A DNA stretch of 42,601 nt from an uncultured Dehalococcoidales bacterium (lineage in GTDB: Bacteria; Chloroflexota; Dehalococcoidia; GIF9; AB-539-J10): NCBI GenBank assembly GCA_964429285.1, contig CAYSBO010000002.1, positions 1 to 42,601 on the forward strand, written 5' to 3'. The notes below the pieces were generated by a model, which was not told the origin of the DNA, did not search any database, and worked only from the letters and a program-made list of their open reading frames with translations. Numbering within the stretch: the first letter of the stretch is position 1; each line of letters opens with the position of its first letter. Both the position numbers and the translations under genes were made by a program. Positions 1 through 17,328 of this stretch are shown piece after piece.

Positions 1-699
1 TGCGTCGTTAGCCTGTTTTCTGTCCTTCTTTCTTTCTTCGGTTAACTCATTTACTTTGGCTTCCCAACCAGATACATCCTCTTCGGGCGAAAGGTCCAGT
101 TTGTTCAGAATATTTTCACCTTTGGAGCTATTGGGAATAAGGAGGATACTGCCGCTCTTTGTGCCCAGCGTTCCTATATGCAAATCTTGGCCACCGGTGG
201 CAGAAAACTTATCACATATCCGGCACACCGGCCGCATCGGCTTACCGTTCCAATTCTGCGAGGCATCCTCAAACGCTTTATCACCCTGCTTTGGATCCTT
301 GAAATAGTCTGCCAACGGCATCACGCCAGGACAGTCCATAGTGATAAGGATTATATTCTCGACGTCTACTTGCGCAAGCTTAGCTAGCTCAATTGTTGCC
401 TGCGCCTCACAGGGCCGTACGATAGCAGCTATTCTTTTGTTCCCCTTTCCACGTCTTGTAAGGCCGGAAATAACTCTAGCTCCCTGGACTGGCATAATTG
501 GAGGCAACATAGAAGATCCTTCAAGAAATGCCTCATCTCGAACTAAGAAGTAGGCAAACGAATCGCCAGTCGGCGCTCTGGCAGGAATAAGGATAGCATC
601 AAAGCAATCCTGACTAAGCGCCTGCCTTACAAGGTTGAGGATGCCTTTTTCCACACCCTCTTTTGCCTCCAGAATTGCCCCTTTTCGAGTAACAGCCAT
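1..699 (-). CDS. FrhB/FdhB-family (coenzyme F420 hydrogenase/dehydrogenase beta-subunit-like) Fe-S flavoprotein; N-terminal 233 codons, ORF runs off the left edge
   Basis: Absent from the ORF track because there is no stop in the window. Manual minus-strand translation from ATG 697-699 (SD aaGGAGttg at 701-710) is open for all 233 codons: MAVTRKGAILEAKEGVEKGILNLVRQALSQDCFDAILIPARAPTGDSFAYFLVRDE...AAIVRPCEAQATIELAKL...MRPVCRICDKFSATGGQDLHIGTLG. The RPCE and CxxCxD..(a)DhxxG segments resemble FrhB_FdhB N and C domains. Confidence 0.55.
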   Translation of the reverse strand, partial: MAVTRKGAILEAKEGVEKGILNLVRQALSQDCFDAILIPARAPTGDSFAYFLVRDEAFLEGSSMLPPIMPVQGARVISGLTRRGKGNKRIAAIVRPCEAQATIELAKLAQVDVENIILITMDCPGVMPLADYFKDPKQGDKAFEDASQNWNGKPMRPVCRICDKFSATGGQDLHIGTLGTKSGSILLIPNSSKGENILNKLDLSPEEDVSGWEAKVNELTEERKKDRKQANDA

Positions 700-877
700 A
701 TCAACTCCTTATCAATCTTACAAGCTCCCGCTGTGAAATCGCTAAGCCATATATTTCTTGAGGACGACGAGCACAGGTTACCCTGGCCAGAGCCTCAGCT
801 CTGCCCAGCTACTTGTCTCCTCAAGCTAGCAATATCTCAGCTGGTCTTTACTTATCCTATCTGCCTGTAGAACTCCC

Positions 878-1921
878 TTACAAATTCTGCATGGGTCGGA
901 CGAACCAGAAGTAGGCTAATGTCCAGCATCCGAATACGATAAAGGCACCATTCAGTATAGAACTGAGGGCAAGCTGGGGTACTCCAGTAAGAATATGGGT
1001 TATGTTACAACCGCCACCAAGGGCTGCTCCAAACCCCATAATACAGCCACCGAAGAATGTCTGGATTAATACTTTGGGCGCTGGCGCTCGCAGCGTAGCT
1101 TCACCAGCTATTTTAGCTCCTATAAAAGCCCCGAGGATGGTGAAGAGTAGCGTTACAGATAGCCACCCGATGAGGTTTTGGCCCAGTAGCAAGCTCTGCA
1201 TAGTTGTCCAGTACCCACCGCAAATAGCTAGGCCGTAGCTCCTGCCAGCAGCAGTCGAGGCGATGAAAGCAAGTATTCCTATAATAGCAATAACGATCGC
1301 AGTTGCCTGCCATCCCCAACCCCGCTTGAATATCTTGGTACCTATGGAAGCATTTTCCTCTTTCCTGGATGACCCCTCACCGCGTTTGGAACGGATAGCC
1401 CAGATAATAAGAGCGACCCCTGCAATCCCAAAGGCCAGCATATGATGAGGTATGCCGAACACATTAGCCAGCGTGAGGTTCGCTCCATCCGCCAATGTGA
1501 CTGTTGTTGCGCCTCTAAGCCACGCAACAAAAGGCTGGAAGACACCCATTGTAGTCATAAGCCCCACGAGTATTAAACCAAGGACCGCTGACATTGCGCC
1601 TACCATACCCTCTCCAAAGCGGTATGTGATCCCACTCGCACATCCACCTGCCACCACCATGCCGATGCCAAAAATGAAGCCACCCAATATATTAGCACCC
1701 CAAAAGAACGTGATGGGACTTATAGTAATCACCCCTGCCATATCCAGGGCTGCGAATGCCACCATCTGGATAAGAATGGCAAGCCCCACCGCCTTCAGGA
1801 GCGCATACTCCTTAAGTACGATGATGTCCCTAAAGGCAGAGTTCATGCAGAACCTGCCCCTCTGCAAGGCAAACCCAAAGGCTAAGCCAACGGGAATGCC
1901 GAGGAAGATCAATGGGCTCAT
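878..1921 (-). CDS. yeeE: YeeE/YedE-family sulfur (thiosulfate) transporter
   Basis: 347-aa polytopic hydrophobic ORF with three Cys motifs (GRFCMNSAF, AGGCASGITY, GGGCNITH) typical of YeeE/YedE. ATG 1919-1921 is preceded by aaGGGGGGa. There is a 2-nt gap to the upstream TusA-like gene. Confidence 0.85.
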   Translation of the reverse strand: MSPLIFLGIPVGLAFGFALQRGRFCMNSAFRDIIVLKEYALLKAVGLAILIQMVAFAALDMAGVITISPITFFWGANILGGFIFGIGMVVAGGCASGITYRFGEGMVGAMSAVLGLILVGLMTTMGVFQPFVAWLRGATTVTLADGANLTLANVFGIPHHMLAFGIAGVALIIWAIRSKRGEGSSRKEENASIGTKIFKRGWGWQATAIVIAIIGILAFIASTAAGRSYGLAICGGYWTTMQSLLLGQNLIGWLSVTLLFTILGAFIGAKIAGEATLRAPAPKVLIQTFFGGCIMGFGAALGGGCNITHILTGVPQLALSSILNGAFIVFGCWTLAYFWFVRPMQNL

Positions 1922-1923
1922 TT

Positions 1924-2172
1924 CTATCCCCCCTTCGCCTCGATGAATATTTTGTGGTTGGGGCCATCAAGTCGCTCTACTTTCAGCACCTTGTGCCCGT
2001 TCTTTTCAGCGTTACCGGGGATACGTTCTACTGAGAGCGGATAATCAACCAGCACCTCCAGTATTTTGCCCTGTTCCATCTTTTTGAGCTTTACCATAGT
2101 CTTAACATCGGGATTGGGACAGATTTCTCCTCTCACATCCAGAGTCTCGTCGGCTTTGATCTCTTCTGCCAT
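1924..2172 (-). CDS. TusA/SirA-family sulfur carrier (YeeD/TsuB-like partner of YeeE)
   Basis: 82 aa. LDVRGEICPNPDVKT carries the CPxP persulfide-carrier motif. SD aAAGGAGaagg lies before ATG 2170-2172. The gene sits immediately upstream of yeeE, as in yeeD-yeeE pairs. Confidence 0.8.
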   Translation of the reverse strand: MAEEIKADETLDVRGEICPNPDVKTMVKLKKMEQGKILEVLVDYPLSVERIPGNAEKNGHKVLKVERLDGPNHKIFIEAKGG

Positions 2173-2252
2173 GTTCCTTCTCCTTTCTTAAGTACTTACT
2201 AATGAACTATACCTTAGCCTGGCTAAAGCAAAGTCAAGCCAGTTATCTGTCT

Positions 2253-3293
2253 TTAGCCACAGGCGCCATCACCTCCATCTGGCGGTGTTGGCACTGCCTC
2301 ACCAGCACCGGTCTCGAACGGATAATCCAAGCTCGTGTCTGGATTGAACCCACCAGGGGCAATATCCGTATCCTTCGTCCAGGAAGTCATGCCCCAATGC
2401 AGGTTGACTGCATTGTAGCCAAGTACATTTAGGATAGCCGTGGCCTGGCTTCCGGTACGGCCGGTGTAGCAGTAGACAACGATCTGCCTACTGGGGTCAA
2501 GTTTTTGCAGATTTTCCCTTTTCGCTATGCCAGTGAGGGCTATATTAACTGCTCCGGGAATATGGCCTTTGGCGTACTGTTCAGCAGTACGAACACTGAT
2601 GATTATGGGGTCGTTAGCTGGGTCGCCACCGGTGATCAGAGCATAGACGTCTGTAGCCGATATATCTTTATGTGAGCCACTAGCATAGTTGTAGCAGGCA
2701 GTTCGAATAATCTCTGTCGGGCTTGTCGAGGCTGTGTTCTCAATCGTAGGCAGAGGGTAGGTCTCATTAAACGTGTTAGCCGTCATCTCAATGGGGTAGT
2801 CCATGGCACTCTCCGGGTCGAAACGATAAGGAGCTACCTCGGTATCCTTTGTCCAGCCAGTCATTCCCCATTTAAGGTTGGTGGCATTATAGCCACACAG
2901 ATTGAGAAGTGCAGCTACCCTACTCCCAGTGTGCCCGGTGTAACAGTAGACCACGATTTCCTTGTCTTGAGGCAGCCTGGTCAGGTTCCCTGTCTTGAAG
3001 ACTCCCGCCATGGGTATGTTGACTGCTCCCGGGATATGGCCTAGCTCGTAGATATCGGGTGCCCGGATGCTGAGTATGAAGGGATCGTTATCCAGGTTAC
3101 GGTCGAGGAGGTTGGAGCACAGGTCTTTTTCCGCCATGTTCCATACGGTGGTGGGCGCATTCAGGTACCCGTCTGCTGCCTCGCGGATGACTTCAAACTC
3201 CGATACGGCTGGTGCCTCTGGGGTAGCTCCTGCTAACACTGGTACAAGTACAAGTAGAATGATTCCCAGAACGAATAGGGCAATCCTTTTCAT
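2253..3293 (-). CDS. Secreted tandem rhodanese-domain sulfurtransferase
   Basis: 346 aa. The N-terminal Sec-type signal is MKRIALFVLGIILLVLVPVLAGA. Two rhodanese modules each carry an active-site loop (VVYCYTGHTGS and VVYCYTGRTGS) and the context GHIPGAVNI. The C-terminus ends in ...PPDGGDGACG. Confidence 0.8.
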   Translation of the reverse strand: MKRIALFVLGIILLVLVPVLAGATPEAPAVSEFEVIREAADGYLNAPTTVWNMAEKDLCSNLLDRNLDNDPFILSIRAPDIYELGHIPGAVNIPMAGVFKTGNLTRLPQDKEIVVYCYTGHTGSRVAALLNLCGYNATNLKWGMTGWTKDTEVAPYRFDPESAMDYPIEMTANTFNETYPLPTIENTASTSPTEIIRTACYNYASGSHKDISATDVYALITGGDPANDPIIISVRTAEQYAKGHIPGAVNIALTGIAKRENLQKLDPSRQIVVYCYTGRTGSQATAILNVLGYNAVNLHWGMTSWTKDTDIAPGGFNPDTSLDYPFETGAGEAVPTPPDGGDGACG

Positions 3294-3333
3294 TTTTTAT
3301 CCTCTCTTCTTGGCATTTTGTGTCTTCCTTCGT

Positions 3334-5031
3334 TTATTTTAGTAGTGCTTCGACCTCTTGATAGATCTCTGTAAAGGTGAAATGCTTCAATTTCGCCGCG
3401 CCGGAAGGACATGCAGCGGCACAGTTTCCGCAACCGTGGCACAGGACCTCGTTTGCAACTGAGATTTTCCTGTATTCGTCGAAGGTAATGGCCCCAAAGG
3501 GACAGACATCAATGCAGGTTTTACATCCAGCACAGAAGGTCTCAGATATCTCGCATACTCTCACCTCCAGTTCTAACTTTCTACCTGGAACCAGTGCCGA
3601 CAGTATCTTGCCTGCTGCCGCCTCTGCCTGAACCATTGACTCAGCAATGCTTTTGGGCCCTTGAGCACAACCAACGACGAATATCCCCTCCACGGCGGAT
3701 GCTACCGGTGAGAGGAGCTCATGCTCTTCAGCATAAAAGCCCCTTTCGTCTTGCTGGAGCTTAAACATCTCAGCAAACTTGTGGGCATCGCCGCTCGGTT
3801 CCATCGCCGGCAGCAGAATTACCATATCTGCCTGTAAGTTCCCTTTTTGAGCGGTTTCCGTTTCATATTTGATGGCTAGACCTCTTTCGCTGCCAGTAAC
3901 CTCAGTCCTGGCAGAGCGGACAAACTCAGCTCCGAGCTTCTTCGTGTCTTCGTAGAACTTCTGATACGCCTTGCCCGGAATGCATAGATCAGAGTAGAGA
4001 TGAGATATTTTGACCTTGGGAAGCTGCGATTTCAGCACCCGGTCAAATTTCAGGGAGTACAGGCAGCATACCTTGGAGCAGTAACCCTTCTCTTCTCGGC
4101 CTACACAATGAATAATAGCTACTGATTCGGGGGGCTTGCCATTGTTGAGCAGGATTTTGCCACCGCCAGGCGCGTCAGCTAGGTTCATTTCCTCGAATTC
4201 CATGCTCGTATAAACATCATCGAGCTTTCCGTATCCATACTGGGCCAGTTTACTGACATCAAACGGCTCAAACCCGGTTGCCAGGACCACGGCTCCAACA
4301 TTGAATTTCGATTGGTCGTCCTGTGCCTTCGTTCTCAGTGTTACTTCGAAGTTTCCGAGGAACCCTAGAACTTGCTCAACCTCGGTCTCGGTGAGCACCT
4401 CAACATTTCCGTTTTCCCCAAGGCTTTTTACTTCCTCTTCAACAAGCTTTGAGCCAGATTCCATGTTGGTGAATAGCGTGCTAAAGCTCTTTACTTTGCC
4501 TCCAAGGGAAGCATCTTTCTCAACAAGGTATACCTTCCTATCGGGAGCAGCAAGGACATTGGCGGCTTTGATCCCGGCAATACCGCCACCAATCACCAGC
4601 ACGTCCGGATTGCAGTCTACCTCTGTCTTTTCCAGGGCTTCCTGGTAATGTACCCTGTTGACGCCGGCCGTTATCAGCCTTATTGCCTTCTCCGTGGCTT
4701 CCGTTCCGTCCGGCGTAACCCAGGCACACTGCTCCCGTATGTTGACAAGCTGACAGAGCTGGGGATTGAGACCTGCCTGTTCGCATACATTCATGAAGGT
4801 CACCTCATGCTGCCTCGGCGAGCAAGCGGCAATCACCACATGCGTCAAGCCATGCTCTTCAATGCTTTGCTTCAGGTATTCTTGTCCGTCCCCGGAACAC
4901 AGAAGCTTATACCTGTCAACAACTGCCACGTCTTTAAGAGGCGAGAGTGCAGCGATCACCCTGTCGATATCTATTTTCTCGGCTATGTTAGTGCCGCACT
5001 CACATACATATACACCTATTTTCTTCGCCAT
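3334..5031 (-). CDS. hdrA: HdrA-like FAD/Fe-S oxidoreductase with N-terminal Cys domain and C-terminal 2x[4Fe-4S] domain but no inserted ferredoxin domain
   Basis: 565 aa. Motifs: N-terminal IGVYVCECGTNIA, Rossmann VLVIGGGIAGIKAA, HCVGREEKGYCSKVCC (HdrA cluster motif), C-terminal CAGCKTCIDVCPFGAI and CHGCGNCAAACPSGA. SD GAGGAA lies before ATG 5029-5031. Confidence 0.85.
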   Translation of the reverse strand: MAKKIGVYVCECGTNIAEKIDIDRVIAALSPLKDVAVVDRYKLLCSGDGQEYLKQSIEEHGLTHVVIAACSPRQHEVTFMNVCEQAGLNPQLCQLVNIREQCAWVTPDGTEATEKAIRLITAGVNRVHYQEALEKTEVDCNPDVLVIGGGIAGIKAANVLAAPDRKVYLVEKDASLGGKVKSFSTLFTNMESGSKLVEEEVKSLGENGNVEVLTETEVEQVLGFLGNFEVTLRTKAQDDQSKFNVGAVVLATGFEPFDVSKLAQYGYGKLDDVYTSMEFEEMNLADAPGGGKILLNNGKPPESVAIIHCVGREEKGYCSKVCCLYSLKFDRVLKSQLPKVKISHLYSDLCIPGKAYQKFYEDTKKLGAEFVRSARTEVTGSERGLAIKYETETAQKGNLQADMVILLPAMEPSGDAHKFAEMFKLQQDERGFYAEEHELLSPVASAVEGIFVVGCAQGPKSIAESMVQAEAAAGKILSALVPGRKLELEVRVCEISETFCAGCKTCIDVCPFGAITFDEYRKISVANEVLCHGCGNCAAACPSGAAKLKHFTFTEIYQEVEALLK

Positions 5032-5042
5032 GTGCTATTCCT

Positions 5043-6323
5043 CTACCTTCTTAGTGCCAGTACTCTTCCAGCTGCTGCCTCTGCATCAGCTATCGTCTCA
5101 GCAATATCTTTAGGGTTTTGGGCACACCCGGCAATAAATATGCCATCTCGTGGGGTAACTACGGAAGTAAGATCCGGTTCCTTCTCACTGAAAAAGCCGT
5201 CCTGCCCCTGGGAAATACCTAGAATCTGTGCCAGTTCTGCTGAATCCGCCGCCGGTTCGAGCGCTGGGTTGAGTATAACCATATCCACGGTCAGTGTATT
5301 ATCCTTGCCATCTTCCGATTTGTATTTGATGTCCAGTCCCTTACCTGACTGTGAGACTTCAGTTACCGTAGCCCTGATGAAATCAACCCCGCCTTCCTTT
5401 ACCTCCTGGTAAAACTTCTGATAGGTTTTGCCAGGGATAGAGAGGTCGGTGTAAAACTGGGTTATTTTGACTTTGGGTAGTTTGTGCTTAACAAAGTGCG
5501 CGATTTTGAGAGAAGCCATACAGCAGACTGAAGAGCAGTAGCCCTTCTCCTCTCGCCCTACACAATGAATAATGGCCATTGATTTCGGCTGTTGTCCGTT
5601 CTTGAGGACTATTTGTCCCTGAGTAGGTCCGTTAGAGGCGCATACCCTCTCAAATTCCATGGCAGAATAGACGTTGTCCAACTTCTTGTATCCAAACTGG
5701 CTGATTCCACTGGGGTCAAATGACTTGAAACCGGTGGCCACAACAATGGCGCCAACCTCAATTTCGAGCTCTTCATCCTGCTGGTTGAAGTCAATTGCTT
5801 CGAATACGCAGGCTTCCTGACAGGCCTGGCACTCTTGCCCTTTAAAACGCAGGCAATTCTCTGTGTCAACAACGGGAATGGCGGGCAAAGACCCGGCACA
5901 CGGGACATATATTGCCTTTCTCTTTGAGAGCCCCTCCTCAAATTCGTTGTCTACCTCTACCGGGCAGGGATCGAAGCAGGCACCGCAACTGATGCAGCTT
6001 TCCATGTCAACGTAGCCCGCCCTTTTCTTGATTTTCACCGAAAAACTGCCCGGAGAGCCGCTGACAGCTTCTACCTGGCTGAGCCTCAGAAGTTCAATAT
6101 TCTTATTGTCCAGTACCTCTTCCAACTTCGGTGCCATGATACAGCCTACGCACTCCATGCTGGGGAATGCATCTTCGAGCTTAATTACATTGCCACCGAT
6201 ATATGAGTTCTTTTCAACGAGGTATACCTGTCTCCCTGACTTAGCCAGCAGTGAGCTTGCCTCAACGCCAGCAATCCCGGCACCGATAACGAGTATCGAG
6301 TTGTTTTGTCCGCTGTTGTTCAT
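5043..6323 (-). CDS. hdrA: HdrA-like FAD/Fe-S oxidoreductase, core plus inserted ferredoxin domain only (no N-terminal or C-terminal Fe-S domains)
   Basis: 426 aa, starting directly at the Rossmann fold ILVIGAGIAGVEAS. Other motifs: FPSMECVGCIMAPKL, inserted CISCGACFDPCP and CQACQEACVFEAI, HCVGREEKGYCSSVCC. It ends after IFIAGCAQNPKDI...AAAGRVLALRR. Confidence 0.85.
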   Translation of the reverse strand: MNNSGQNNSILVIGAGIAGVEASSLLAKSGRQVYLVEKNSYIGGNVIKLEDAFPSMECVGCIMAPKLEEVLDNKNIELLRLSQVEAVSGSPGSFSVKIKKRAGYVDMESCISCGACFDPCPVEVDNEFEEGLSKRKAIYVPCAGSLPAIPVVDTENCLRFKGQECQACQEACVFEAIDFNQQDEELEIEVGAIVVATGFKSFDPSGISQFGYKKLDNVYSAMEFERVCASNGPTQGQIVLKNGQQPKSMAIIHCVGREEKGYCSSVCCMASLKIAHFVKHKLPKVKITQFYTDLSIPGKTYQKFYQEVKEGGVDFIRATVTEVSQSGKGLDIKYKSEDGKDNTLTVDMVILNPALEPAADSAELAQILGISQGQDGFFSEKEPDLTSVVTPRDGIFIAGCAQNPKDIAETIADAEAAAGRVLALRR

Positions 6324-6336
6324 TTCATCTCCATCG

Positions 6337-6762
6337 CTATATCACAACCTTTTGCTTCGTAGGGTTGGGCCCCATTTGCCTGACTTTGTTGGCAAATTCG
6401 TTGGTTACCTCGGCGAACCTTTGCCCTTCAGTGGCTGATATCCACGCTAGCATGAGCCTGTCTGACTCCAGGCCTAATGTTTCAAGGGTTTGCTTAAGAA
6501 GGGCAAATCTTCGGCGGGCATAATAGTTCCCTTCCCTATAGTGACAGTCTCCCGGATGGCACCCAGCAATGAGCACGCCGTCTGCACCACGCAGCAGAGC
6601 TGTAGCCGCAAGAACCGGGTCAACCCTGCCAGAACACATCACCCGGATAACCGAGAGAAACGAGGGGATTTCTAGCTTCGCCGTCCCGGCAAGGTCAGCA
6701 GCAGCGTAAGTACACCAGTTGCACAGGAAACCAACTATTCGAGGTGTAAATTCTTTCGCCAT
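6337..6762 (-). CDS. mvhD: MvhD/FlpD-like [2Fe-2S] electron-transfer protein (methyl-viologen-reducing hydrogenase delta-subunit family)
   Basis: 141 aa with FLCNWCTYAAADLAGT, VMCSGRVDP and GADGVLIAGCHPGDCHY, the classical MvhD signature. There is a 13-nt gap to the downstream hdrA-like gene. Confidence 0.85.
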   Translation of the reverse strand: MAKEFTPRIVGFLCNWCTYAAADLAGTAKLEIPSFLSVIRVMCSGRVDPVLAATALLRGADGVLIAGCHPGDCHYREGNYYARRRFALLKQTLETLGLESDRLMLAWISATEGQRFAEVTNEFANKVRQMGPNPTKQKVVI

Positions 6763-6774
6763 GAATATCCCTGC

Positions 6775-7002
6775 TCAGAACTGGACCTGGGCCTTGAAAT
6801 TTCCACCTCCCTCATCCACGCACATAAGCAGCGTCTTGCCCGCCTTCTTGCACCAACCTTCCATGCTGTGGGGGAAGGTGTCGCAGTCAGAGAGCACCTC
6901 TACAGTGTCTCCCGGCTGGACATTTTGTTTGGCATAGACAGCCAACTTGAGCACCGGCTCGGGGCATTTGAGTCCCTTGTAGTCTAGATTATGTGTTGCC
7001 AT
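6775..7002 (-). CDS. TusA-family sulfur carrier protein
   Basis: 75 aa. LDYKGLKCPEPVLKL carries the CPxP motif. SD AAGGAGG lies before ATG 7000-7002. Confidence 0.75.
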   Translation of the reverse strand: MATHNLDYKGLKCPEPVLKLAVYAKQNVQPGDTVEVLSDCDTFPHSMEGWCKKAGKTLLMCVDEGGGNFKAQVQF

Positions 7003-7069
7003 CTGAACCTCCTTTAAATGTTATTTATGCTAATTCTTTATTTCTGCCTTTTTCAATAATCCTTGACCC

Positions 7070-7429
7070 TTAGAAAGAGAAAGTCAGCTGGGCATCCCTG
7101 GCTTCATCGAGAAACGTAGGAGCGTCCACGACTTCCACTCCTTCTCTTAAATCTTCTCGCTTAATACCCTTGACTCCGAATGCCAGCTCACAGAGCAGCA
7201 CCCTGCCTCCCAGAATCTGAAAGCCTTCAAGCAGTCCCATTAGGTCAGACCAGCCCTTGGCTTTCGAATTAATATTCTCCAGTGCTCCCTTCACCAGGGC
7301 CGGTGCTCCATCGGGCTCGAAAAACAGCACCACATCGTCGCCACCCGCCACTGCCGCGGAGCCGAGAACAAAAGTAGGGAAGATACTCCGTTCATCTGCC
7401 CCGTTAACCGTAATCGCTACTTTAGCCAT
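7070..7429 (-). CDS. DsrE/DsrF-like (DrsE_2-type) sulfur-relay family protein
   Basis: 119 aa. MAKVAITVNGADERSIFPTFVLGSAAVAGGDDVVLFFEPDGAPALVKG has the DsrE-like Rossmann-type beginning, and there is a single Cys in LLCELAFG. SD GGAGG lies before ATG 7427-7429. The gene is adjacent to a TusA gene, a frequent DsrE-TusA pairing. Confidence 0.6.
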   Translation of the reverse strand: MAKVAITVNGADERSIFPTFVLGSAAVAGGDDVVLFFEPDGAPALVKGALENINSKAKGWSDLMGLLEGFQILGGRVLLCELAFGVKGIKREDLREGVEVVDAPTFLDEARDAQLTFSF

Positions 7430-7462
7430 ATTGTGCCTCCTTTACTTTTTGCTCTTCTGCTT

Positions 7463-7486
7463 CTGTGATGTCCTCAGAGATCACAG
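7463..7486. promoter_or_regulatory. Perfect inverted repeat CTGTGAT-N10-ATCACAG in the mvhD/dsrE-like intergenic gap
   Basis: Read directly: ctgtgat (7463-7469) and atcacag (7480-7486). It lies 34 nt upstream of the dsrE-like start on the transcribed strand. It could be an operator or an RNA hairpin; there is no U-tract. Confidence 0.25.
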
Positions 7487-7520
7487 AGCCTAGTTATCTG
7501 GCTCACCTCAATCGTGAAGA

Positions 7521-7946
7521 CTAATTTGCCTGGGCTCTCCGTCTGAACTGGCTTGGTCCAAGCTGCTTTATTTCTTCCGTGAAGCTCTTGACGGTCTCAG
7601 CCACCTTATGCCCCTCAGATGCTGAGATCCATTCCAGCTTGAGCCTGTCGGGTTCAATTCCCATGGCTCCAAGGAAAGGCTTCATAGCTCTGATTCTTCT
7701 CATGGCGTTCAAGTTGCCCTTCAGGTAATGACAGTCTCCTGGATGGCAGCCAGAGACCAGGACGCCATCAGCACCAGCGGTAATTGCCCTAAGTGTCAGC
7801 AGTTCATTTACCCTGCCGCTACACATCACCCTGATTATCCTTACATTGGGAGGATACTGCACTCTTGAAGTGCCAGCCAGGTCAGCACCGGCGTAAGAGC
7901 ACCAGTTACAGAAAAAAGCTACTATTGTTGGTTCGAAGTCCTCCAT
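7521..7946 (-). CDS. mvhD: MvhD/FlpD-like [2Fe-2S] electron-transfer protein (second copy)
   Basis: 141 aa with FFCNWCSYAGADLAGTS, VMCSGRVNE and GADGVLVSGCHPGDCHY. Confidence 0.85.
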   Translation of the reverse strand: MEDFEPTIVAFFCNWCSYAGADLAGTSRVQYPPNVRIIRVMCSGRVNELLTLRAITAGADGVLVSGCHPGDCHYLKGNLNAMRRIRAMKPFLGAMGIEPDRLKLEWISASEGHKVAETVKSFTEEIKQLGPSQFRRRAQAN

Positions 7947-8041
7947 CTATTCTCTCAATTGAGCAGAGGGAGCAGTTCAAGTCCGCCTCTACTTCTCAGG
8001 TCAACAAAACTGATAACTGATAGCATACTTGTCGAAGAATG

Positions 8042-9448
8042 TCAATTTTCTCTCAAATACTCATCAACATCTGCGGCTGCCCGTTTACCGGCCCCCATGG
8101 CGCTTATGACAGTAGCAGCGCCAGTCACTATGTCCCCACCAGCCCAGACTCCTGTCCTGGAGGTTCTGCCTCTCTCATCAGCGACGACAGTGCCATGCCT
8201 GGTCATCTCTAACCCTGGTGTGCGCCTGGGCAGAAGGGGGTTAGGCCGTGTTCCCAATGCTGGGACGAAAGTATCAATGTCCATAGAAAATTCACTCCCC
8301 GGCTTTTCTACCGGACGTCTCCTGCCACTATCATCCGGTTCGCCCAGCTCCATCTCAACACACTCCATAGCTTTCACCGAGCCGTGGGCATCAGGGACTA
8401 TCCGCACAGGCAGGGTTAGTAGTTTGAAGACGACCCCTTCCTCCTTGGCATTCTCCCTTTCTTCCAGCCTGGCTGGCATTTCAGCTTCAGTGCGACGATA
8501 GACAATGTAGACGTCGTCGGCGCCCATTCTCAACGCCCACCTGGCCGCGTCCATGGCGACATTACCGGCGCCAACGACAGCGACCTTCTTGCCGACCTTC
8601 ACAGGCGTGTCATATTCGGGGAAGAGGTAGGCTTTCATGAGGTTAAGTCGGACCAGAAACTCATTTGCCGAGTAAACCATCTTTGAGTTCTCACCCGGTA
8701 TATTGAGGAACATTGGTGCACCGGAGCCAATGCCAAGAAATGCTGCATGGTAGCCATCGGCCAATAGCTCATCAAGAGTCGCTGACCTTCCGATTACCTG
8801 GTTGAGCTTCAGTTCCACACCCAGTATGCTGGTCAAGTAGTCGACCTCCGCCTGGACAATGTTCTTGGGCAGCCTGAATTCCGGTATTCCATAAATAGTC
8901 ACACCTCCCGGGAGGTGCAGAGCCTCATACATGACGACCTTATGTCCGGCTTTAGCTAAATCAGCCGCGCAGGTGAGCCCGGCTGGCCCTGACCCAATAA
9001 TGGCCACCTTCTTGCCCGTAGCTTTGGGCAGGTCAATCTTGAATACACCCGATTCCTCCTGGTTCTCTCGTGCCCAGTCAGAGATAAACCTTTCTAGCCT
9101 ACCTATGGATACGGGCTCCCCCTTCTTCCCCAGGGCACAGTTTTTTTCACACTGTGTCTCCTGCGGGCAAACCCGACCACAGATGGCAGGAAGGCTGTTG
9201 GTGTTATAGACAATTTTAGCCGCCGTGGGCAAGTCCCCCTCGGCTATAGCTTTAACAAAACTCGGGATATCTACGTTAACAGGGCAGTCAGGGACACACC
9301 CGGGCTTCTTACATTGAATGCAACGTTTTGCTTCCTCAACCGCCTGTTCATAGGTGTAACCGTGTGCCACTTCGTGAGGATTTCGCCTGCGAACCTCCGG
9401 AGGTTGCTTACTCATAGGAGTACGGTTCAACTTTAGTTTCTCAGCCAT
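8042..9448 (-). CDS. NfnB/SudA/GltD-family NAD(P)H-dependent FAD, 2x[4Fe-4S] oxidoreductase large subunit (copy 1)
   Basis: 468 aa. N-terminal Fe-S motifs are CIQCKKPGCVPDCPV and CGRVCPQETQCEKNC. Dinucleotide folds are VAIIGSGPAGL and VAVVGAGNVAMD. The C-terminus reads GVWAGGDIVTGAATVISAMGAGKRAA. Confidence 0.85.
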   Translation of the reverse strand: MAEKLKLNRTPMSKQPPEVRRRNPHEVAHGYTYEQAVEEAKRCIQCKKPGCVPDCPVNVDIPSFVKAIAEGDLPTAAKIVYNTNSLPAICGRVCPQETQCEKNCALGKKGEPVSIGRLERFISDWARENQEESGVFKIDLPKATGKKVAIIGSGPAGLTCAADLAKAGHKVVMYEALHLPGGVTIYGIPEFRLPKNIVQAEVDYLTSILGVELKLNQVIGRSATLDELLADGYHAAFLGIGSGAPMFLNIPGENSKMVYSANEFLVRLNLMKAYLFPEYDTPVKVGKKVAVVGAGNVAMDAARWALRMGADDVYIVYRRTEAEMPARLEERENAKEEGVVFKLLTLPVRIVPDAHGSVKAMECVEMELGEPDDSGRRRPVEKPGSEFSMDIDTFVPALGTRPNPLLPRRTPGLEMTRHGTVVADERGRTSRTGVWAGGDIVTGAATVISAMGAGKRAAADVDEYLREN

Positions 9449-14121: not shown

Positions 14122-16092
14122 TCATACCAGTACTCCTTCTACCTGAGCGAAAATCTGCTCATTAGTGAACTGTCTTGCAGTTATTGCTCCGCTGGGACAT
14201 GCACCGGCACAGACGCCGCAGCCTTTGCACAAGGCCTCGTTGATTCGGCAGACTTCCTTTTCTTCGTCATAAGAAATGGCGCCAAAGGGACAAAGCGCGA
14301 GGCATGTCTTACAACCGGCGCATTTCTCTTCATCAATTGCTGATACCGCGGCCTCGAGCGTAATTCTACCTTGGCTTATCATTGCTAGAACCCTTGCCGC
14401 CGCTGCTGAAGCTTGGGCTACGGTATCGGGAATATCCTTGGGACTCTGGCAACAACCAGCAACGAAAATCCCCTCAGTAGGCGTAGCTACCGGATCCAGT
14501 TTGGGATGCCTCTCCAGGAAGAAACCGGTCGCCTTCTGGTTTATGGTAAATAGACTCGCTAGCTCTACAGCATCGGGTTGAGGCTCTAGGGCATTACACA
14601 GAATAACCATGTCTACTGGAATACGGATCATACTTCCTAGAAGCGTGTCCTCGGCAACCACGATGAGTTTGTCTTTTTCCTCGTCAGTTATGGCCTGATC
14701 GGTGACCTTGGCTACCTTGCCCCGAACAAAGTTGACTCCTTCTTCGGAGAGACGCGCGTAGAATTCCTCATATCCGTCTCCGAAGCACCGCATGTCGATA
14801 TACAACTGGTAGACGTCTGTGTTTGGCAGCTCTTCCTTAATGTAATTTGCCTGTTTAAGGGCGTACATACAGCAAACCCGGGAGCAATACTCATGATAAT
14901 TCTTGTCTCGGCTGCCAACACAATGGACTATGGCCACGCTCTCCGGCTCTCTGCCGTCCTTAAGGTGAATCTTCCCTTCGGTGGGTCCTGTAGGGCTCAC
15001 CATCCGCTCGAACTCCAGCCCAGTCATGACGCCATCGTATTTCCCGTAACCATACTGAGGAATGCGTTTGGGATCCATAAGGCTATAGCCGGTGGCCAGA
15101 ATAACTGACCCCACCTCTACTTCAATGAATTCGTCTTTCTGGTCAAAATCTATGGCTTCTGCCTCGCAGAGCTTAATGCAAGCTCCGCATTTCTTCCCTT
15201 CTGATTTGATGTAGATGCAGAGATCCGGATCAATGGTGGCAACGTTAGGGATAGCTTGAGGAAACGGAATATAGGCAGCCTTTCTCTTTGCCAGGCCCAG
15301 TTCGAATTCACTATCTGTCTTATAAGGGCATTTCTGCATGCACATACCACAGCCGGTACACTTGTCCTCGTCCACATACCTGGCTTTTTTCCTTATTTTG
15401 GCCTTGAAATTTCCTACGAAGCCGGAAACCTCCTCCACCTCGCTATAGGCCAACAGCTCGATATGGGGATGCGAACCTGCCTCGCTCATCTTGGGAGTAA
15501 GAATACATTGAGAACAGTCCAGGGTCGGGAAGGTCTTGTCAAGCTGGATCATGTGCCCGCCGATGGAGGGATCCCTCTCCACTAGATAGACCTTGTGCTC
15601 AGAGTTGGCAATCTCCAGAGCAGCTTGAATTCCGGCAATTCCCCCACCTACGACCAGAGTATTCGGATTATAGGGAGCCTCCTTGACTTCTAAGGCCTCC
15701 TGGTAGTGAACACGCCTCACCGCGGCGCCGATCAAAGCCTTGGCCTTCTCCGTATTCGCCTTCTTGTCTGAATTGACCCAGGAACATTGCTCTCTTATGT
15801 TTACCATTTCGAATAGATAACGATTTAGCCCGGCGCTTTCACAAACCCGTCGGAAAGTCACCTCGTGTAACCTGGGGGAGCAAGAAGCGACTATAACACG
15901 ATTGAGGTTATGTTCCTTAATGTCTTTTCTAATGAGGTCTTGCCCCGGGTCGGAACACATGAATACGTAATCACGGGACAGCACCACTTCGGGTAGCGTA
16001 CCCGCATATTTTGCTACCTCTTCCACATCGAGTGTCGCTGCAATATTCACTCCGCAGTGACAAACGTAAACGCCGATCCTTATATCTTCCAT
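14122..16092 (-). CDS. hdrA: Full-length heterodisulfide reductase subunit A-like flavoprotein (all four HdrA domains)
   Basis: Motifs: IGVYVCHCGVNIA, LVVGGGIAGIQAA, FPTLDCSQCILTPKM, inserted CTGCGMCMQKCP and CGACIKLCEAEAI, HCVGSRDKNYHEYCSRVCC, C-terminal CAGCKTCLALCPFGAI and CKGCGVCAGACPSGAI. I prefer ATG 16090-16092 (GGAGG 6 nt upstream, TGAAATG junction with hdrBC) over the track's TTG at 16119. Confidence 0.9.
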   Translation of the reverse strand: MEDIRIGVYVCHCGVNIAATLDVEEVAKYAGTLPEVVLSRDYVFMCSDPGQDLIRKDIKEHNLNRVIVASCSPRLHEVTFRRVCESAGLNRYLFEMVNIREQCSWVNSDKKANTEKAKALIGAAVRRVHYQEALEVKEAPYNPNTLVVGGGIAGIQAALEIANSEHKVYLVERDPSIGGHMIQLDKTFPTLDCSQCILTPKMSEAGSHPHIELLAYSEVEEVSGFVGNFKAKIRKKARYVDEDKCTGCGMCMQKCPYKTDSEFELGLAKRKAAYIPFPQAIPNVATIDPDLCIYIKSEGKKCGACIKLCEAEAIDFDQKDEFIEVEVGSVILATGYSLMDPKRIPQYGYGKYDGVMTGLEFERMVSPTGPTEGKIHLKDGREPESVAIVHCVGSRDKNYHEYCSRVCCMYALKQANYIKEELPNTDVYQLYIDMRCFGDGYEEFYARLSEEGVNFVRGKVAKVTDQAITDEEKDKLIVVAEDTLLGSMIRIPVDMVILCNALEPQPDAVELASLFTINQKATGFFLERHPKLDPVATPTEGIFVAGCCQSPKDIPDTVAQASAAAARVLAMISQGRITLEAAVSAIDEEKCAGCKTCLALCPFGAISYDEEKEVCRINEALCKGCGVCAGACPSGAITARQFTNEQIFAQVEGVLV

Positions 16093-16093
16093 T

Positions 16094-17251
16094 TCATTCC
16101 TCCGACATTGCCTCAGCAACTAGCTCAATTATGTCTTTAACCTGCATGGTCTCCGCCTTGCCCATAGAGAGCACGCTATCCCTGTAGTTGAGGAAACAGT
16201 AAGGACAGGCCACTGCTATGATTTCAGCACCTTTTTCGGCAGCTTGCTCCACTCTTATGTCAGAGAACCTTTCCCCTTTCGGGGTATCCATCCAGATTCT
16301 GCCGCCCCCACCCCCACAGCAAAGTGCGTCCTCGCGAAAGTCGGGAAACTCCATCAATTCCACCCCGGGGATACTCTCTAACACTTTTCTGGGCTCATCA
16401 TATATGTCGCTGTGCCTTCCCAAATAGCAGGGGTCAGAATAGATTACCTTCTTCTTTACTTCTTTGGAGAATTTTAGTTTCCCCTGGTCTAGGAGCGAAG
16501 CCAAATATTGGGTGACGTGAATTGCCTCAAATTGGCCCCCGAGCTCGGGGTATTCGTACTTGAAAGTGTAGTAGCAGTGGGGTGAAGAAGCCACCACGGT
16601 CTTGACGTCGTTATTGTTGAAAAGTTGAATATTGCTTTGGGCCAGACTGAGAAATGTATCTTCATGCCCAGCTTTTCTAATAGACTCGCCGCAGCATTTT
16701 GCCTCAGTGCCTATCAGGCCGTAGTCAAGCCCCAGCTTGTTGAACACCGTAGCAGTGGACCGGGCCACTGTCTTTGCATCAGGGTCGTAGGAAGGAATAC
16801 AGCACGGGAAATACAGCAGGTCAGTGCCGGAAGCAAAGTCCTTCACGTTGAGTTCTTTCGCCCAGTCGTTCCGTTTTTCTGGTGCCTCCCCAAGGGGGTT
16901 TCCTACCCCGGCGATGTTTTTGGCCGAAATCCTCAGAGCATCGGGGACGACCCCAATACCTAGGCTAGCTACAGCCCGGCGTATAGCTCTCATGATATCG
17001 ATTATCTCCACACCCCGGGGGCAGCGTTGAACACAGGCCCCACAGGTGACGCAGGTCCAGACATCCTCGCTGCCAAAATCAATTGCCCCGAGCTGAGACT
17101 CATGCATGATACGACGAACGACGAAACTGCGTACCTGGTTCCAGGGACAAATTCCGGTGCAAAGGCCGCATTGGTAGCACAATTTGAGAGGTTCGCCACC
17201 AGCCTCCAGTATCACATCTGTAGCTTCTTTGTAAGGACTTAATACTTCCAT
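16094..17251 (-). CDS. HdrC-HdrB fusion (HdrD/GlpC-like) Fe-S protein with two CCG domains
   Basis: N-terminal CYQCGLCTGICPW and CVTCGACVQRCPRG (2x[4Fe-4S]), followed by CCG-type motifs FPCCIPSYD..KCCGESI and DPCYLGRH..LCCGGGGG..CPYC. ATG 17249-17251 with GAGGTGA 7 nt upstream is preferred over the TTG at 17287, which lies inside a hairpin/A-tract. Confidence 0.85.
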   Translation of the reverse strand: MEVLSPYKEATDVILEAGGEPLKLCYQCGLCTGICPWNQVRSFVVRRIMHESQLGAIDFGSEDVWTCVTCGACVQRCPRGVEIIDIMRAIRRAVASLGIGVVPDALRISAKNIAGVGNPLGEAPEKRNDWAKELNVKDFASGTDLLYFPCCIPSYDPDAKTVARSTATVFNKLGLDYGLIGTEAKCCGESIRKAGHEDTFLSLAQSNIQLFNNNDVKTVVASSPHCYYTFKYEYPELGGQFEAIHVTQYLASLLDQGKLKFSKEVKKKVIYSDPCYLGRHSDIYDEPRKVLESIPGVELMEFPDFREDALCCGGGGGRIWMDTPKGERFSDIRVEQAAEKGAEIIAVACPYCFLNYRDSVLSMGKAETMQVKDIIELVAEAMSEE

Positions 17252-17285
17252 CTTTGTTTCACCTCGGCCTTTCAGAATTGGCCAC

Positions 17286-17328
17286 AAAAAAAGGTGGCCC
17301 CCACAAGAGTACTACGGTCACCTTTTTT
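17286..17328 (-). terminator. Hairpin flanked by A7 and T6 tracts (bidirectional-terminator-like or attenuator-like element) in the leader of the hdr cluster
   Basis: Minus strand reads AAAAAAGGTGACC-gtagtactcttgtggg-GGCCACCTTTTTTT: a 7-bp stem with one A:C mismatch, a 16-nt loop and a U7 tail. The 3' stem arm can alternatively pair with the downstream GTGGCC (GGCCAC-N8-GTGGCC). Confidence 0.4.

What the first reader, a model, noticed from the sequence alone, without database searches (positions are those of the whole stretch)
3334..6323. Two adjacent HdrA paralogues with complementary domain losses, suggesting an asymmetric HdrA heterodimer
Seen in sequence: the 665-aa HdrA at 14122-16092 has all four parts: the N-terminal Cys domain, the FAD core with a CxxC, the inserted 2x[4Fe-4S] domain and the C-terminal 2x[4Fe-4S] domain. 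The 565-aa copy keeps the N-terminal and C-terminal Fe-S domains. It lacks the FPxxxCxxC segment and the inserted ferredoxin domain. The 426-aa copy starts at the Rossmann fold, keeps FPSMECVGC and the inserted ferredoxin domain, and lacks both terminal domains. Both share the same variant cluster motif, HCVGREEKGYCS(K/S)VCC, versus CVGSRD...YCSRVCC in the full-length copy. The two genes are 11 nt apart. Established knowledge: structurally characterised HdrA works as a homodimer in which the Fe-S domains of both protomers build the two electron branches. Inference: the pair may form a heterodimer with only one copy of each branch, making it a structurally polarised bifurcating core.
Basis: partly seen in the sequence, partly recalled or inferred. 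Interest (0 to 1): 0.6.

Follow-up and report, generated by a model that had tools for sequence, protein, structure and literature searches.

The report
Split HdrA pair, lopsided heterodimer
Two neighbouring copies of the electron-splitting flavoprotein HdrA in an uncultured Dehalococcoidia bacterium have each kept exactly the iron-sulfur parts the other lost and very probably work as one lopsided pair; the design is already known from archaeal tandem HdrAs and from the fused BamE protein, so this is a well-conserved new example, unusual mainly for the sulfur-carrier genes around it.

Summary
The 426-aa protein (5043-6323, minus strand; "S") has the FAD core, the Cys194/Cys197-type CxxC and the inserted 2x[4Fe-4S] domain. 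The 565-aa protein (3334-5031; "L") has the N-terminal Cys domain, an FAD core without the CxxC or the insert, and the C-terminal 2x[4Fe-4S] domain. An 11-nt spacer with a ribosome-binding site separates them.

The pattern is identical in all 20 S-type and 19 L-type orthologues examined, and S is followed by L in every locus whose contig continues.

The heterodimer reading is supported, but only by inference. It is also not new. Chadwick et al. 2022 proposed it for tandem and fused HdrA in ANME archaea. A 2026 cryo-EM preprint shows that BamE is such a fused HdrA dimer with only one bifurcating flavin.

The losses fit current structures. L keeps the mobile arm, and S keeps the core that the arm serves in trans. 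One trans unit survives, with a predicted 7 [4Fe-4S] + 2 FAD, the same set as BamE.

Three things differ here. L keeps the flavin Lys/Glu. The genes stay separate. The conserved cassette (MvhD, DsrE-like, TusA-like, MvhD, S, L, two FdhB-like proteins) has no HdrBC.

This scan has flagged the same cassette before in other genomes.

The parts
5043..6323 (-). HdrA-S (426 aa): TrxR-like FAD core with the Cys58/Cys61 pair (= Cys194/197), inserted 2x[4Fe-4S] ferredoxin domain and TrxR-domain [4Fe-4S] motif; E356 and K409 equivalents present; no N-terminal or C-terminal domain
3334..5031 (-). HdrA-L (565 aa): N-terminal Cys domain (six conserved Cys), FAD core without the Cys pair and without the inserted ferredoxin domain, TrxR-domain [4Fe-4S] motif, C-terminal 2x[4Fe-4S] domain; E356 and K409 equivalents present
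5032..5042 (-). 11-nt spacer between the TAG stop of HdrA-S and the ATG of HdrA-L; a GAGGA ribosome-binding site spans the stop codon
6337..6762 (-). MvhD_a (141 aa), [2Fe-2S] adaptor with five invariant Cys, directly upstream of HdrA-S; conserved cassette member
6775..7002 (-). TusA-like protein (75 aa) with a CPxP cysteine plus three more conserved Cys; conserved cassette member
7070..7429 (-). DsrE-like protein (119 aa) with one invariant Cys80; conserved cassette member
7521..7946 (-). MvhD_b (141 aa), second MvhD at the head of the cassette
2253..3293 (-). Tandem-rhodanese protein (346 aa); variable accessory inserted between HdrA-L and the FdhB-like genes
1924..2172 (-). TusA/YedF/YeeD-like protein (82 aa); variable accessory
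878..1921 (-). YeeE/TsuA-like sulfur (thiosulfate) transporter (347 aa); variable accessory
1..699 (-). First of two FdhB/FrhB-like flavin/Fe-S proteins of the cassette, cut by the contig end; complete (about 386 aa) and followed by a second paralogue (about 366 aa) in related loci
14122..16092 (-).
16094..17287 (-). HdrC-HdrB fusion (CCG domains plus 2x[4Fe-4S]) beside the full-length HdrA; the nearest CCG protein to the S-L pair, about 10 kb upstream

Best explanation
HdrA-S and HdrA-L are two subunits of one obligate, asymmetric HdrA heterodimer.

In canonical (HdrA)2, each working unit spans both protomers. The mobile arm of one protomer (N-terminal cluster domain, C-terminal ferredoxin domain and bound MvhD with its donor module) delivers electrons to the FAD of the other protomer, next to that protomer's Cys194/Cys197 pair. 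The arm then carries the low-potential electron back to that protomer's inserted ferredoxin domain.

In this pair L supplies the only arm. S supplies the only complete core: FAD, Cys pair, inserted ferredoxin exit and TrxR-domain cluster. One trans unit is kept, and every part of the reciprocal unit is deleted. The predicted cofactor set is 2 FAD + 7 [4Fe-4S], the same as the fused relative BamE.

MvhD_a and the two FdhB-like proteins encoded around the pair most likely form the electron-donor arm, as in the Fdh-Hdr and Elp-Hdr complexes.

Shown: the domain and ligand content, its conservation, the gene linkage and the existence of fusions. Inferred: the physical heterodimer, which flavin bifurcates, and the donor. 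The high-potential acceptor is unknown.
For: Complementary content.

Conservation: 20/20 S-type proteins have C-C at 194/197, eight insert Cys, and no N- or C-terminal domains. 19/19 L-type proteins have six N-terminal Cys, eight C-terminal Cys, no insert, and variable non-Cys residues at 194/197.

Linkage: S is immediately followed by L in every related locus whose contig continues, including MAGs labelled Deltaproteobacteria and WOR-3. The 11-nt spacer carries an SD.

Fusions: the same genome has a 1033-aa S-then-L fusion and a second split pair. In 69 fused homologues the S half has invariant Cys pair, E356 and K409. The fusion folds as one body with pLDDT 91.6 and pTM 0.92 and matches HdrA chains.

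Structures: the mobile arm acts on Cys202'/Cys205' and FAD' of the partner (Sci Adv 2026). BamE is a fused HdrA dimer with B-FAD, Cys59-Cys62 and the inserted Fd in TrxR1, and clusters E1-E7 (bioRxiv 10.64898/2026.04.10.717634).

The pair position is functionally important: related full-length HdrAs carry an in-frame TGA (probable Sec) exactly there.

Donor: the FrhB-like partners best match FdhB of the Fdh-Hdr structures.

RNA-library contigs from two studies bridge the S-L junction (weak).
Against: There are no interaction data for these proteins. No heterodimer model could be computed here, because the tool folds single natural chains only.

No natural fusion belongs to this cassette's own S/L clade; the best long hits are at most 49% identical. 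The Rosetta-stone evidence therefore comes from paralogues.

L keeps E356 and K409 in 19/19 orthologues. In the fused family the L half has lost the Lys in 27/69, and BamE has Gln there. 'Only the S flavin works' may therefore be wrong for this pair.

The cassette has two MvhD and two FdhB-like genes but, on this model, only one canonical docking arm.
Confidence: 0.72

Rival explanations
1. S and L do form a heterodimer, but it is a plain (non-bifurcating) electron-transfer module of the QmoAB kind: two HdrA paralogues that pass electrons between a donor and a sulfur-related acceptor without splitting electron pairs.
For: QmoA and QmoB are also adjacent HdrA paralogues working in one complex (PMC10504309). 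The cassette has no HdrBC. Sulfur-carrier genes sit inside it.
Against: Both subunits keep the Glu/Lys pair proposed to mark bifurcating HdrA flavins. S keeps the Cys pair and the low-potential exit domain, and L keeps the shuttle-cluster domain. NCBIfam places both nearest HdrA/HdrA2, with no Qmo model among the 25 hits shown for each protein. No AprA, DsrAB-type sulfite reductase or DsrC was found in the 86%-complete genome. No QmoC-like membrane gene was seen in the cassette.
Confidence: 0.15
2. The two proteins work apart, each as a homodimer with a reduced cofactor set (as sHdrA does), and their adjacency reflects only a shared operon.
For: A minimal HdrA-like homodimer exists (sHdrA, 6tjr; it matches both proteins). 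Both proteins keep FAD-site residues and the TrxR-domain cluster.
Against: An L2 dimer would carry two arms with no Cys pair and no ferredoxin exit to serve. An S2 dimer would carry two Cys pairs and exits with no arm or shuttle cluster. Strict conservation of exactly complementary sets in 20 lineages, constant adjacency and recurrent natural fusion of S-type with L-type modules are hard to explain this way.
Confidence: 0.06
3. The pair is a recently split or decaying copy of a fused BamE/HdrL-type gene (frameshift, assembly error or pseudogene), not a stable two-gene design.
For: Fused S-then-L proteins of about 1000 aa are common and occur in the same genome.
Against: Two intact ORFs with their own SD and start are kept in 20 loci. 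Cassette S and L form their own well-supported clades, separate from the fused group. No long near-identical DNA lies between the two genes; the best is 73% over 110 nt. Independent RNA and DNA runs reproduce the junction without indels.
Confidence: 0.02

Closest known systems
Tandem HdrA5/6 and HdrA12/13 (and fused HdrA3/4) of ANME archaea, proposed heterodimers (Chadwick et al. 2022, PLoS Biol, PMC9012536)
   Same: Adjacent HdrA paralogues. [quoted passage not shown] The same inference was drawn: a symmetry-breaking heterodimer. Clusters often hold MvhD and FdhB/FrhB-like genes.
   Different: Those are archaeal, in methane metabolism. That paper mentions no TusA or DsrE. The fused forms described there run in the opposite order (N-terminal-domain half first). 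Orthology to this bacterial pair was not tested.
BamE of class II benzoyl-CoA reductase, Geobacter metallireducens (cryo-EM preprint, bioRxiv 10.64898/2026.04.10.717634)
   Same: One S-type module (Cys59-Cys62 pair, inserted Fd domain, bifurcating FAD with Lys280) plus one L-type module (N- and C-terminal regions, second FAD). It has seven [4Fe-4S] clusters, E1-E7, an MvhD-type adaptor (BamF) and a mobile arm with two states. The window's genome has a Bam-like cluster with such a fusion on contig C14.
   Different: BamE is a single polypeptide. Its second flavin has Gln in place of the Lys and is judged structural, whereas L keeps Lys and Glu. In BamE the high-potential branch ends in the HdrBC-like BamD and the low-potential branch in BamBC; this cassette has neither.
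Fdh-Hdr and Elp-Hdr complexes of methanogens (PDB 7bkb, 8rvu/8rvy, 9t1s; PMC12350162)
   Same: An FdhB-type flavin/Fe-S subunit plus MvhD forms the donor arm on HdrA. The cassette's two FrhB-like proteins match FdhB of these entries best (E 1e-19 to 1e-29).
   Different: There HdrA is a symmetric four-domain homodimer with HdrBC and two arms. No F420 biosynthesis gene (cofH) was found in this genome, so the donor cofactor may differ.
sHdr-LbpA sulfur-oxidising system with its TusA/DsrE3/rhodanese sulfur relay (PMC11094781; sHdrA structure 6tjr)
   Same: An HdrA-family flavoprotein encoded with DsrE-type, TusA and rhodanese sulfur transferases.
   Different: sHdrA is a minimal homodimer without the N-terminal, inserted or C-terminal domains. 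sHdr needs HdrB/C-type subunits and LbpA, none of which are in this cassette.
QmoAB of the QmoABC complex of sulfate reducers
   Same: Two adjacent HdrA paralogues of unequal size act in one complex linked to sulfur metabolism.
   Different: Qmo has the membrane subunit QmoC and works with AprAB. AprA was not found here, and S and L score as HdrA/HdrA2 rather than Qmo.

Membership tests
HdrA family (FAD/Fe-S subunit of heterodisulfide reductase) | TrxR-like FAD fold with GxGxxG | tested here: met
   Both proteins match Pyr_redox_2/FAD_oxidored and align to solved HdrA at E 1e-94 to 1e-115.
HdrA family (FAD/Fe-S subunit of heterodisulfide reductase) | TrxR-domain [4Fe-4S] motif C...CSxVCC | tested here: met
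   All four Cys are present in S, L and every orthologue, in a loop three residues shorter than in the full-length copy.
HdrA family (FAD/Fe-S subunit of heterodisulfide reductase) | Flavin-site Glu356 and Lys409 proposed to mark bifurcating HdrA | tested here: met
   Both residues are present in S and in L, and in 20/20 and 19/19 orthologues.
Asymmetric S+L HdrA unit (tandem or fused; ANME HdrA5/6, BamE, type II HdrA) | One module with the Cys194/197 pair and inserted ferredoxin domain but no N-terminal domain | tested here: met
   HdrA-S.
Asymmetric S+L HdrA unit (tandem or fused; ANME HdrA5/6, BamE, type II HdrA) | A partner module with N-terminal cluster domain and C-terminal ferredoxin domain but no Cys pair | tested here: met
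   HdrA-L.
Asymmetric S+L HdrA unit (tandem or fused; ANME HdrA5/6, BamE, type II HdrA) | The two modules are encoded together (adjacent or fused) | tested here: met
   11-nt spacer. S is followed by L in all related loci that continue.
Asymmetric S+L HdrA unit (tandem or fused; ANME HdrA5/6, BamE, type II HdrA) | The two modules share the HdrA dimer interface in one complex | not testable with these tools
   Only single natural chains can be folded. The paralogous natural fusion gives pTM 0.92, and BamE is solved as a fused dimer.
Asymmetric S+L HdrA unit (tandem or fused; ANME HdrA5/6, BamE, type II HdrA) | Second (L-side) flavin degenerate, as in BamE (Gln for Lys). This is a property of BamE, not a requirement of the class. 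| tested here: not met
   L keeps Lys and Glu in 19/19. The fused family keeps Lys in only 42/69.
HdrABC heterodisulfide reductase | HdrB/HdrC (CCG-domain) subunit encoded with HdrA | tested here: not met
   No CCG protein lies in the conserved cassette. The nearest is the hdrCB fusion beside the full-length HdrA, about 10 kb upstream. The genome has four CCG proteins in all.
sHdr-LbpA sulfur-oxidising system | Minimal sHdrA with sHdrB1B2C1C2 and lipoate-binding LbpA | tested here: not met
   S and L carry extra Fe-S domains. No CCG or LbpA-type gene was seen among the cassette genes annotated. LbpA was not searched genome-wide.
QmoABC | QmoC membrane subunit and linkage to AprAB | tested here: not met
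   No such gene is in the cassette. aprA was not found in the 86%-complete genome.

The most novel reading that the evidence does not exclude
The S-L heterodimer is the core of an HdrBC-less electron-bifurcating (or confurcating) enzyme. Its high-potential partner would be sulfane sulfur carried on the cassette's own DsrE-like and four-cysteine TusA-like proteins. L's flavin, which keeps Lys and Glu unlike BamE's second flavin, would be a working second redox site serving that branch. This would be a bacterial 'protein-persulfide' counterpart of the methanogen heterodisulfide.
Probability: 0.2. Interest if true: 0.75.

Novelty: new member of a known kind. Interest (0 to 1): 0.4.

Why it matters
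HdrA is the best-studied flavin-based electron-bifurcating module, and how its two-fold symmetric dimer gates electrons is still debated. A natural, stably split version would help. One gene carries only the arm and the other only the served core, so the parts could be mutated and expressed separately. Examples are the Cys pair on S and the Lys on L. In the homodimer or in fused BamE every mutation hits both roles or one long chain.

The pair also anchors a conserved cassette that lacks the usual disulfide-reducing subunit and includes sulfur-carrier proteins. RNA-library contigs suggest, weakly, that it is expressed in situ. It therefore bears on the open question of what non-methanogens use as the 'heterodisulfide'.

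The heterodimer idea itself is already in the literature.

Tried and rejected
Gene context was taken from the search for related loci and the genome search instead.
- A search for a natural fusion of this cassette's own S and L found none; the best long hits are 35-49% identical and belong to the paralogous fused group.
- Independent origin of the S/L split: the best tree makes cassette S and L sisters (support 100) and the fused-group S and L sisters elsewhere. The AU test does not reject one clade of all L types (p 0.27) and rejects one clade of all S types only post hoc (p 0.009). This is left unresolved.
- Gene conversion as the cause of the shared motif: no long near-identical DNA; the maximum is 73% over 110 nt.
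- Dissimilatory sulfite or sulfate reduction context: no NIR_SIR, DsrC or AprA was found. The genome is only 86% complete, so this does not show absence.
- F420 as donor: cofH was not found. Other cof genes were not searched.
- Fold search of the fusion model only re-finds HdrA chains. No coordinates are returned, so the Cys-pair to shuttle-cluster geometry could not be measured.
- RNA-run contigs cover the cassette, but DNA carry-over in those libraries cannot be excluded, and contigs cannot prove a single transcript.
- The second structure job and the representative-library search were not used, because they would not discriminate between the readings.
Full report
**What is there.** On the minus strand the window encodes a 426-aa protein (5043-6323, here S) and, 11 nt downstream, a 565-aa protein (3334-5031, here L). 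The junction reads ...AGA AGG TAG AGGAATAGCAC ATG, with a GAGGA ribosome-binding site spanning the stop codon. Both are HdrA-family flavoproteins. They match solved HdrA chains at E 1e-94 to 1e-115. The third copy in the window (14122-16092, 656 aa from its ATG) matches at 1e-222 and has all four domains.

**Checking the observation.**
- L aligns to the HdrA N-terminal domain and the first part of the core. It then lacks about 80 residues (the inserted 2x[4Fe-4S] domain) and aligns again to the C-terminal ferredoxin domain.
- Where HdrA reads FPTLDCSxC, L reads FTNMESGSK.
- S starts at the Rossmann fold and ends right after the core. It keeps FPSMECVGC and the eight Cys of the insert. From the alignment offset to 5odc_A, S Cys58 and Cys61 are Cys194 and Cys197.
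- There is no spare sequence that could hide a divergent copy of the missing domains.
- The shared shortened motif HCVGREEKGYCS(K/S)VCC is real.
- The only slip is that 14122-16092 gives 656 aa, not 665.

**Organism and conservation.** Close homologues are named Dehalococcoidia or Chloroflexota MAGs. The genome is a 1.47-Mb, 86%-complete bin, and the window begins at a contig end.

From one genome per species I fetched 25 related loci. In every locus that has an S orthologue and continues, the order is MvhD, DsrE-like, TusA-like, MvhD, S, L, then two FdhB/FrhB-like genes. A TusA/YeeD-like gene, a YeeE-like transporter and a rhodanese are sometimes inserted after L, as in the window. The loci include MAGs labelled Deltaproteobacteria, WOR-3 and Acidobacteriota.

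A column-by-column table shows the following.
- All 20 S-type proteins have Cys-Cys at 194/197 and eight insert Cys, with no terminal domains.
- All 19 L-type proteins have six N-terminal Cys and eight C-terminal Cys, no insert, and variable non-Cys residues at 194/197.
- Both types always keep the four Cys of the TrxR-domain cluster, together with Glu356 and Lys409. These two residues are proposed to mark bifurcating HdrA flavins (PMC12054007).

The cassette is patchy. An S orthologue was found in only 4 of 401 sampled genomes of the class. At least 120 protein clusters of 68-96% identity exist in metagenomes.

**Prior art.** Chadwick et al. 2022 (PMC9012536) described tandem HdrA5/6 and 12/13 and fused HdrA3/4 in ANME archaea. 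These show the same complementarity of N-terminal domain, Cys197 and C-terminal ferredoxin domain, and the authors proposed symmetry-breaking heterodimers. They noted the same for the fused HdrA of the Moorella MetFV-HdrABC-MvhD complex.

A 2025 survey calls the fused form type II and the GltD-insert form type III (PMC12054007).

- The N-terminal TrxR1 flavin is the bifurcating one. It has Lys280, a Cys59-Cys62 pair and the inserted Fd domain with clusters E5/E6.
- The TrxR2 flavin has Gln768 and is judged structural.
- There are seven clusters, E1-E7.

**How the losses map onto the mechanism.** Recent cryo-EM papers (Sci Adv 2026, PMC13580544; Nature 2026, PMC13518236; Nature 2025, PMC12350162) describe a mobile arm. 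It consists of the HdrA N- and C-terminal domains with MvhD and the donor module.
- In one state, the MvhD cluster approaches Cys202'/Cys205' (= Cys194/197) and FAD' of the partner protomer.
- In the other state, the N-terminal 'shuttle' cluster HA3 takes the low-potential electron from FAD' and hands it to the inserted ferredoxin domain.
- HA4' takes the high-potential electron towards HdrCB.

Each working unit therefore spans both protomers. Read this way, L is an arm on a stripped core and S is a complete core without an arm. One trans unit (arm of L, core of S) is kept, and every part of the reciprocal unit is gone.

Counting conserved Cys sets gives 3 clusters in S and 4 in L. That is 7 [4Fe-4S] + 2 FAD, the complement seen in BamE. 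This step is inference.

The importance of position 197 is underlined by four related Dehalococcoidia genomes. Their full-length HdrA has an in-frame TGA exactly there (FPTLDCSA*IL), as in the Sec197 of M. maripaludis.

**Rosetta-stone and modelling evidence.**
- Contig C14 of the same genome carries a Bam-like cluster: AOR, a small protein, a CCG protein, a 1033-aa S-then-L fusion, a long MvhD, NuoE, NuoF and a Fer2/Fer4 protein.
- C14 also carries a second split pair, in which the S-type partner bears an NfnB/GltD-like insert.
- Fused S-L proteins of about 1000 aa are widespread. In 69 of them the S half has invariant Cys pair, Glu and Lys. The L half keeps the Lys in only 42.
- With that alignment the C14 fusion folds with mean pLDDT 91.6 and pTM 0.92, so the two halves have a confidently predicted mutual arrangement. 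It matches HdrA chains.
- No fusion belongs to the cassette's own clade, so this evidence is from paralogues.

**Evolution.** On a 334-column core alignment the cassette's S and L clades are sisters (support 100), next to the full-length HdrAs. The S and L modules of the fused and insert-bearing group are sisters elsewhere. That would mean complementary loss happened at least twice. The AU test, however, does not reject a single L clade (p 0.27) and rejects a single S clade only post hoc (p 0.009). I leave this open.

S and L are 51% identical over the second half of the core, without gaps. They share no long near-identical DNA, so recent gene conversion is unlikely.

**Surroundings and function.**
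- The two FrhB-like proteins best match FdhB of the Fdh-Hdr structures 9t1s, 8rvu and 7bkb. With MvhD_a they probably form the donor arm.
- cofH was not found, so the hydride carrier may not be F420.
- The cassette has no CCG/HdrB-type protein. The nearest is the hdrCB fusion beside the full-length HdrA.
- The DsrE-like protein has one invariant Cys. The TusA-like protein has four conserved Cys.
- A CsoR/RcnR-family repressor with a Cys...Cys and no His lies divergently upstream in 9 of 16 related loci.
- No DsrAB-type sulfite reductase, DsrC or AprA was found.
- The high-potential acceptor is thus unknown. Carrier-bound sulfane sulfur is an attractive but untested candidate, and an HdrCB encoded elsewhere is the conservative alternative.
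- RNA-library contigs from four salt-lake metatranscriptome runs (two studies) cover the cassette and bridge the S-L junction. This is a weak sign of expression.

**Verdict.** The heterodimer interpretation is supported by strong indirect evidence but is not demonstrated. The principle is already published and, for the fused relative, structurally shown. This is a new, well-conserved bacterial member of a known kind.

Its particular points of interest are three. The genes stay split. L retains the flavin Lys/Glu. The cassette is HdrBC-less and linked to sulfur carriers. The same cassette has been flagged several times in other genomes by this scan.

Noticed in passing
L003, L004, L007, L008 (genomes G035, G036, G029, G039): The full-length HdrA of four related Dehalococcoidia genomes has a single in-frame TGA exactly at the Cys197-equivalent (FPTLDCSA*IL). 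This is a probable selenocysteine, as at position 197 of M. maripaludis HdrA.
   Followed up: partly
L013:1687-12563 (own genome, contig C14): Gene cluster arranged like class II benzoyl-CoA reductase bamBCDEFGHI: AOR-family protein, 174-aa protein, CCG protein, 1033-aa fused S-L HdrA, 255-aa MvhD, NuoE-like, NuoF-like and Fer2/Fer4 protein. The L half of the fusion has Thr at the K409 position.
   Followed up: partly
L013:12868-18697 (own genome, contig C14): A second split S/L pair. A 908-aa S-type HdrA with an NfnB/GltD-like NAD(P)H module inserted in its ferredoxin domain is followed by a 566-aa L-type HdrA, an MvhD and an FrhB-like protein. It looks like a two-gene version of the ~1480-aa fused proteins seen.
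   Followed up: partly
window 6775-7002 (-): The cassette's TusA-like protein has four cysteines conserved in 21-22 of 22 orthologues (C13 in CPxP, C40, C51, C61), which is unusual for TusA. They could bind a metal or cluster, or form internal disulfides.
   Followed up: no
L015:5544-5837 (-) and equivalents in 9 of 16 related loci: A ~97-aa CsoR/RcnR-family repressor (Cys...Cys spaced as in CsoR but with Tyr in place of the His, so perhaps CstR-like persulfide sensing) is divergently transcribed upstream of the cassette. In the window's genome the only copy is elsewhere (C1:44754-44978).
   Followed up: partly
L023, L029, L030, L031, downstream of the FdhB-like genes: MvhD, a NiFe-hydrogenase small subunit and a large subunit follow the cassette in four related genomes. 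L029 additionally has a MetF-C-terminal-like protein and an ArsR-type regulator.
   Followed up: no
window 1-8100: Contigs of four salt-lake metatranscriptome runs from two studies cover the whole cassette at 97-100% identity. DNA runs from freshwater and other sediments hold it too.
   Followed up: partly
window 14122-16119 (-): The longest ORF of the full-length hdrA starts at a TTG that overlaps the end of hdrCB. The ATG at 16092 (MEDIRIGVYVCHCG) is the likelier start and gives 656 aa.
   Followed up: no
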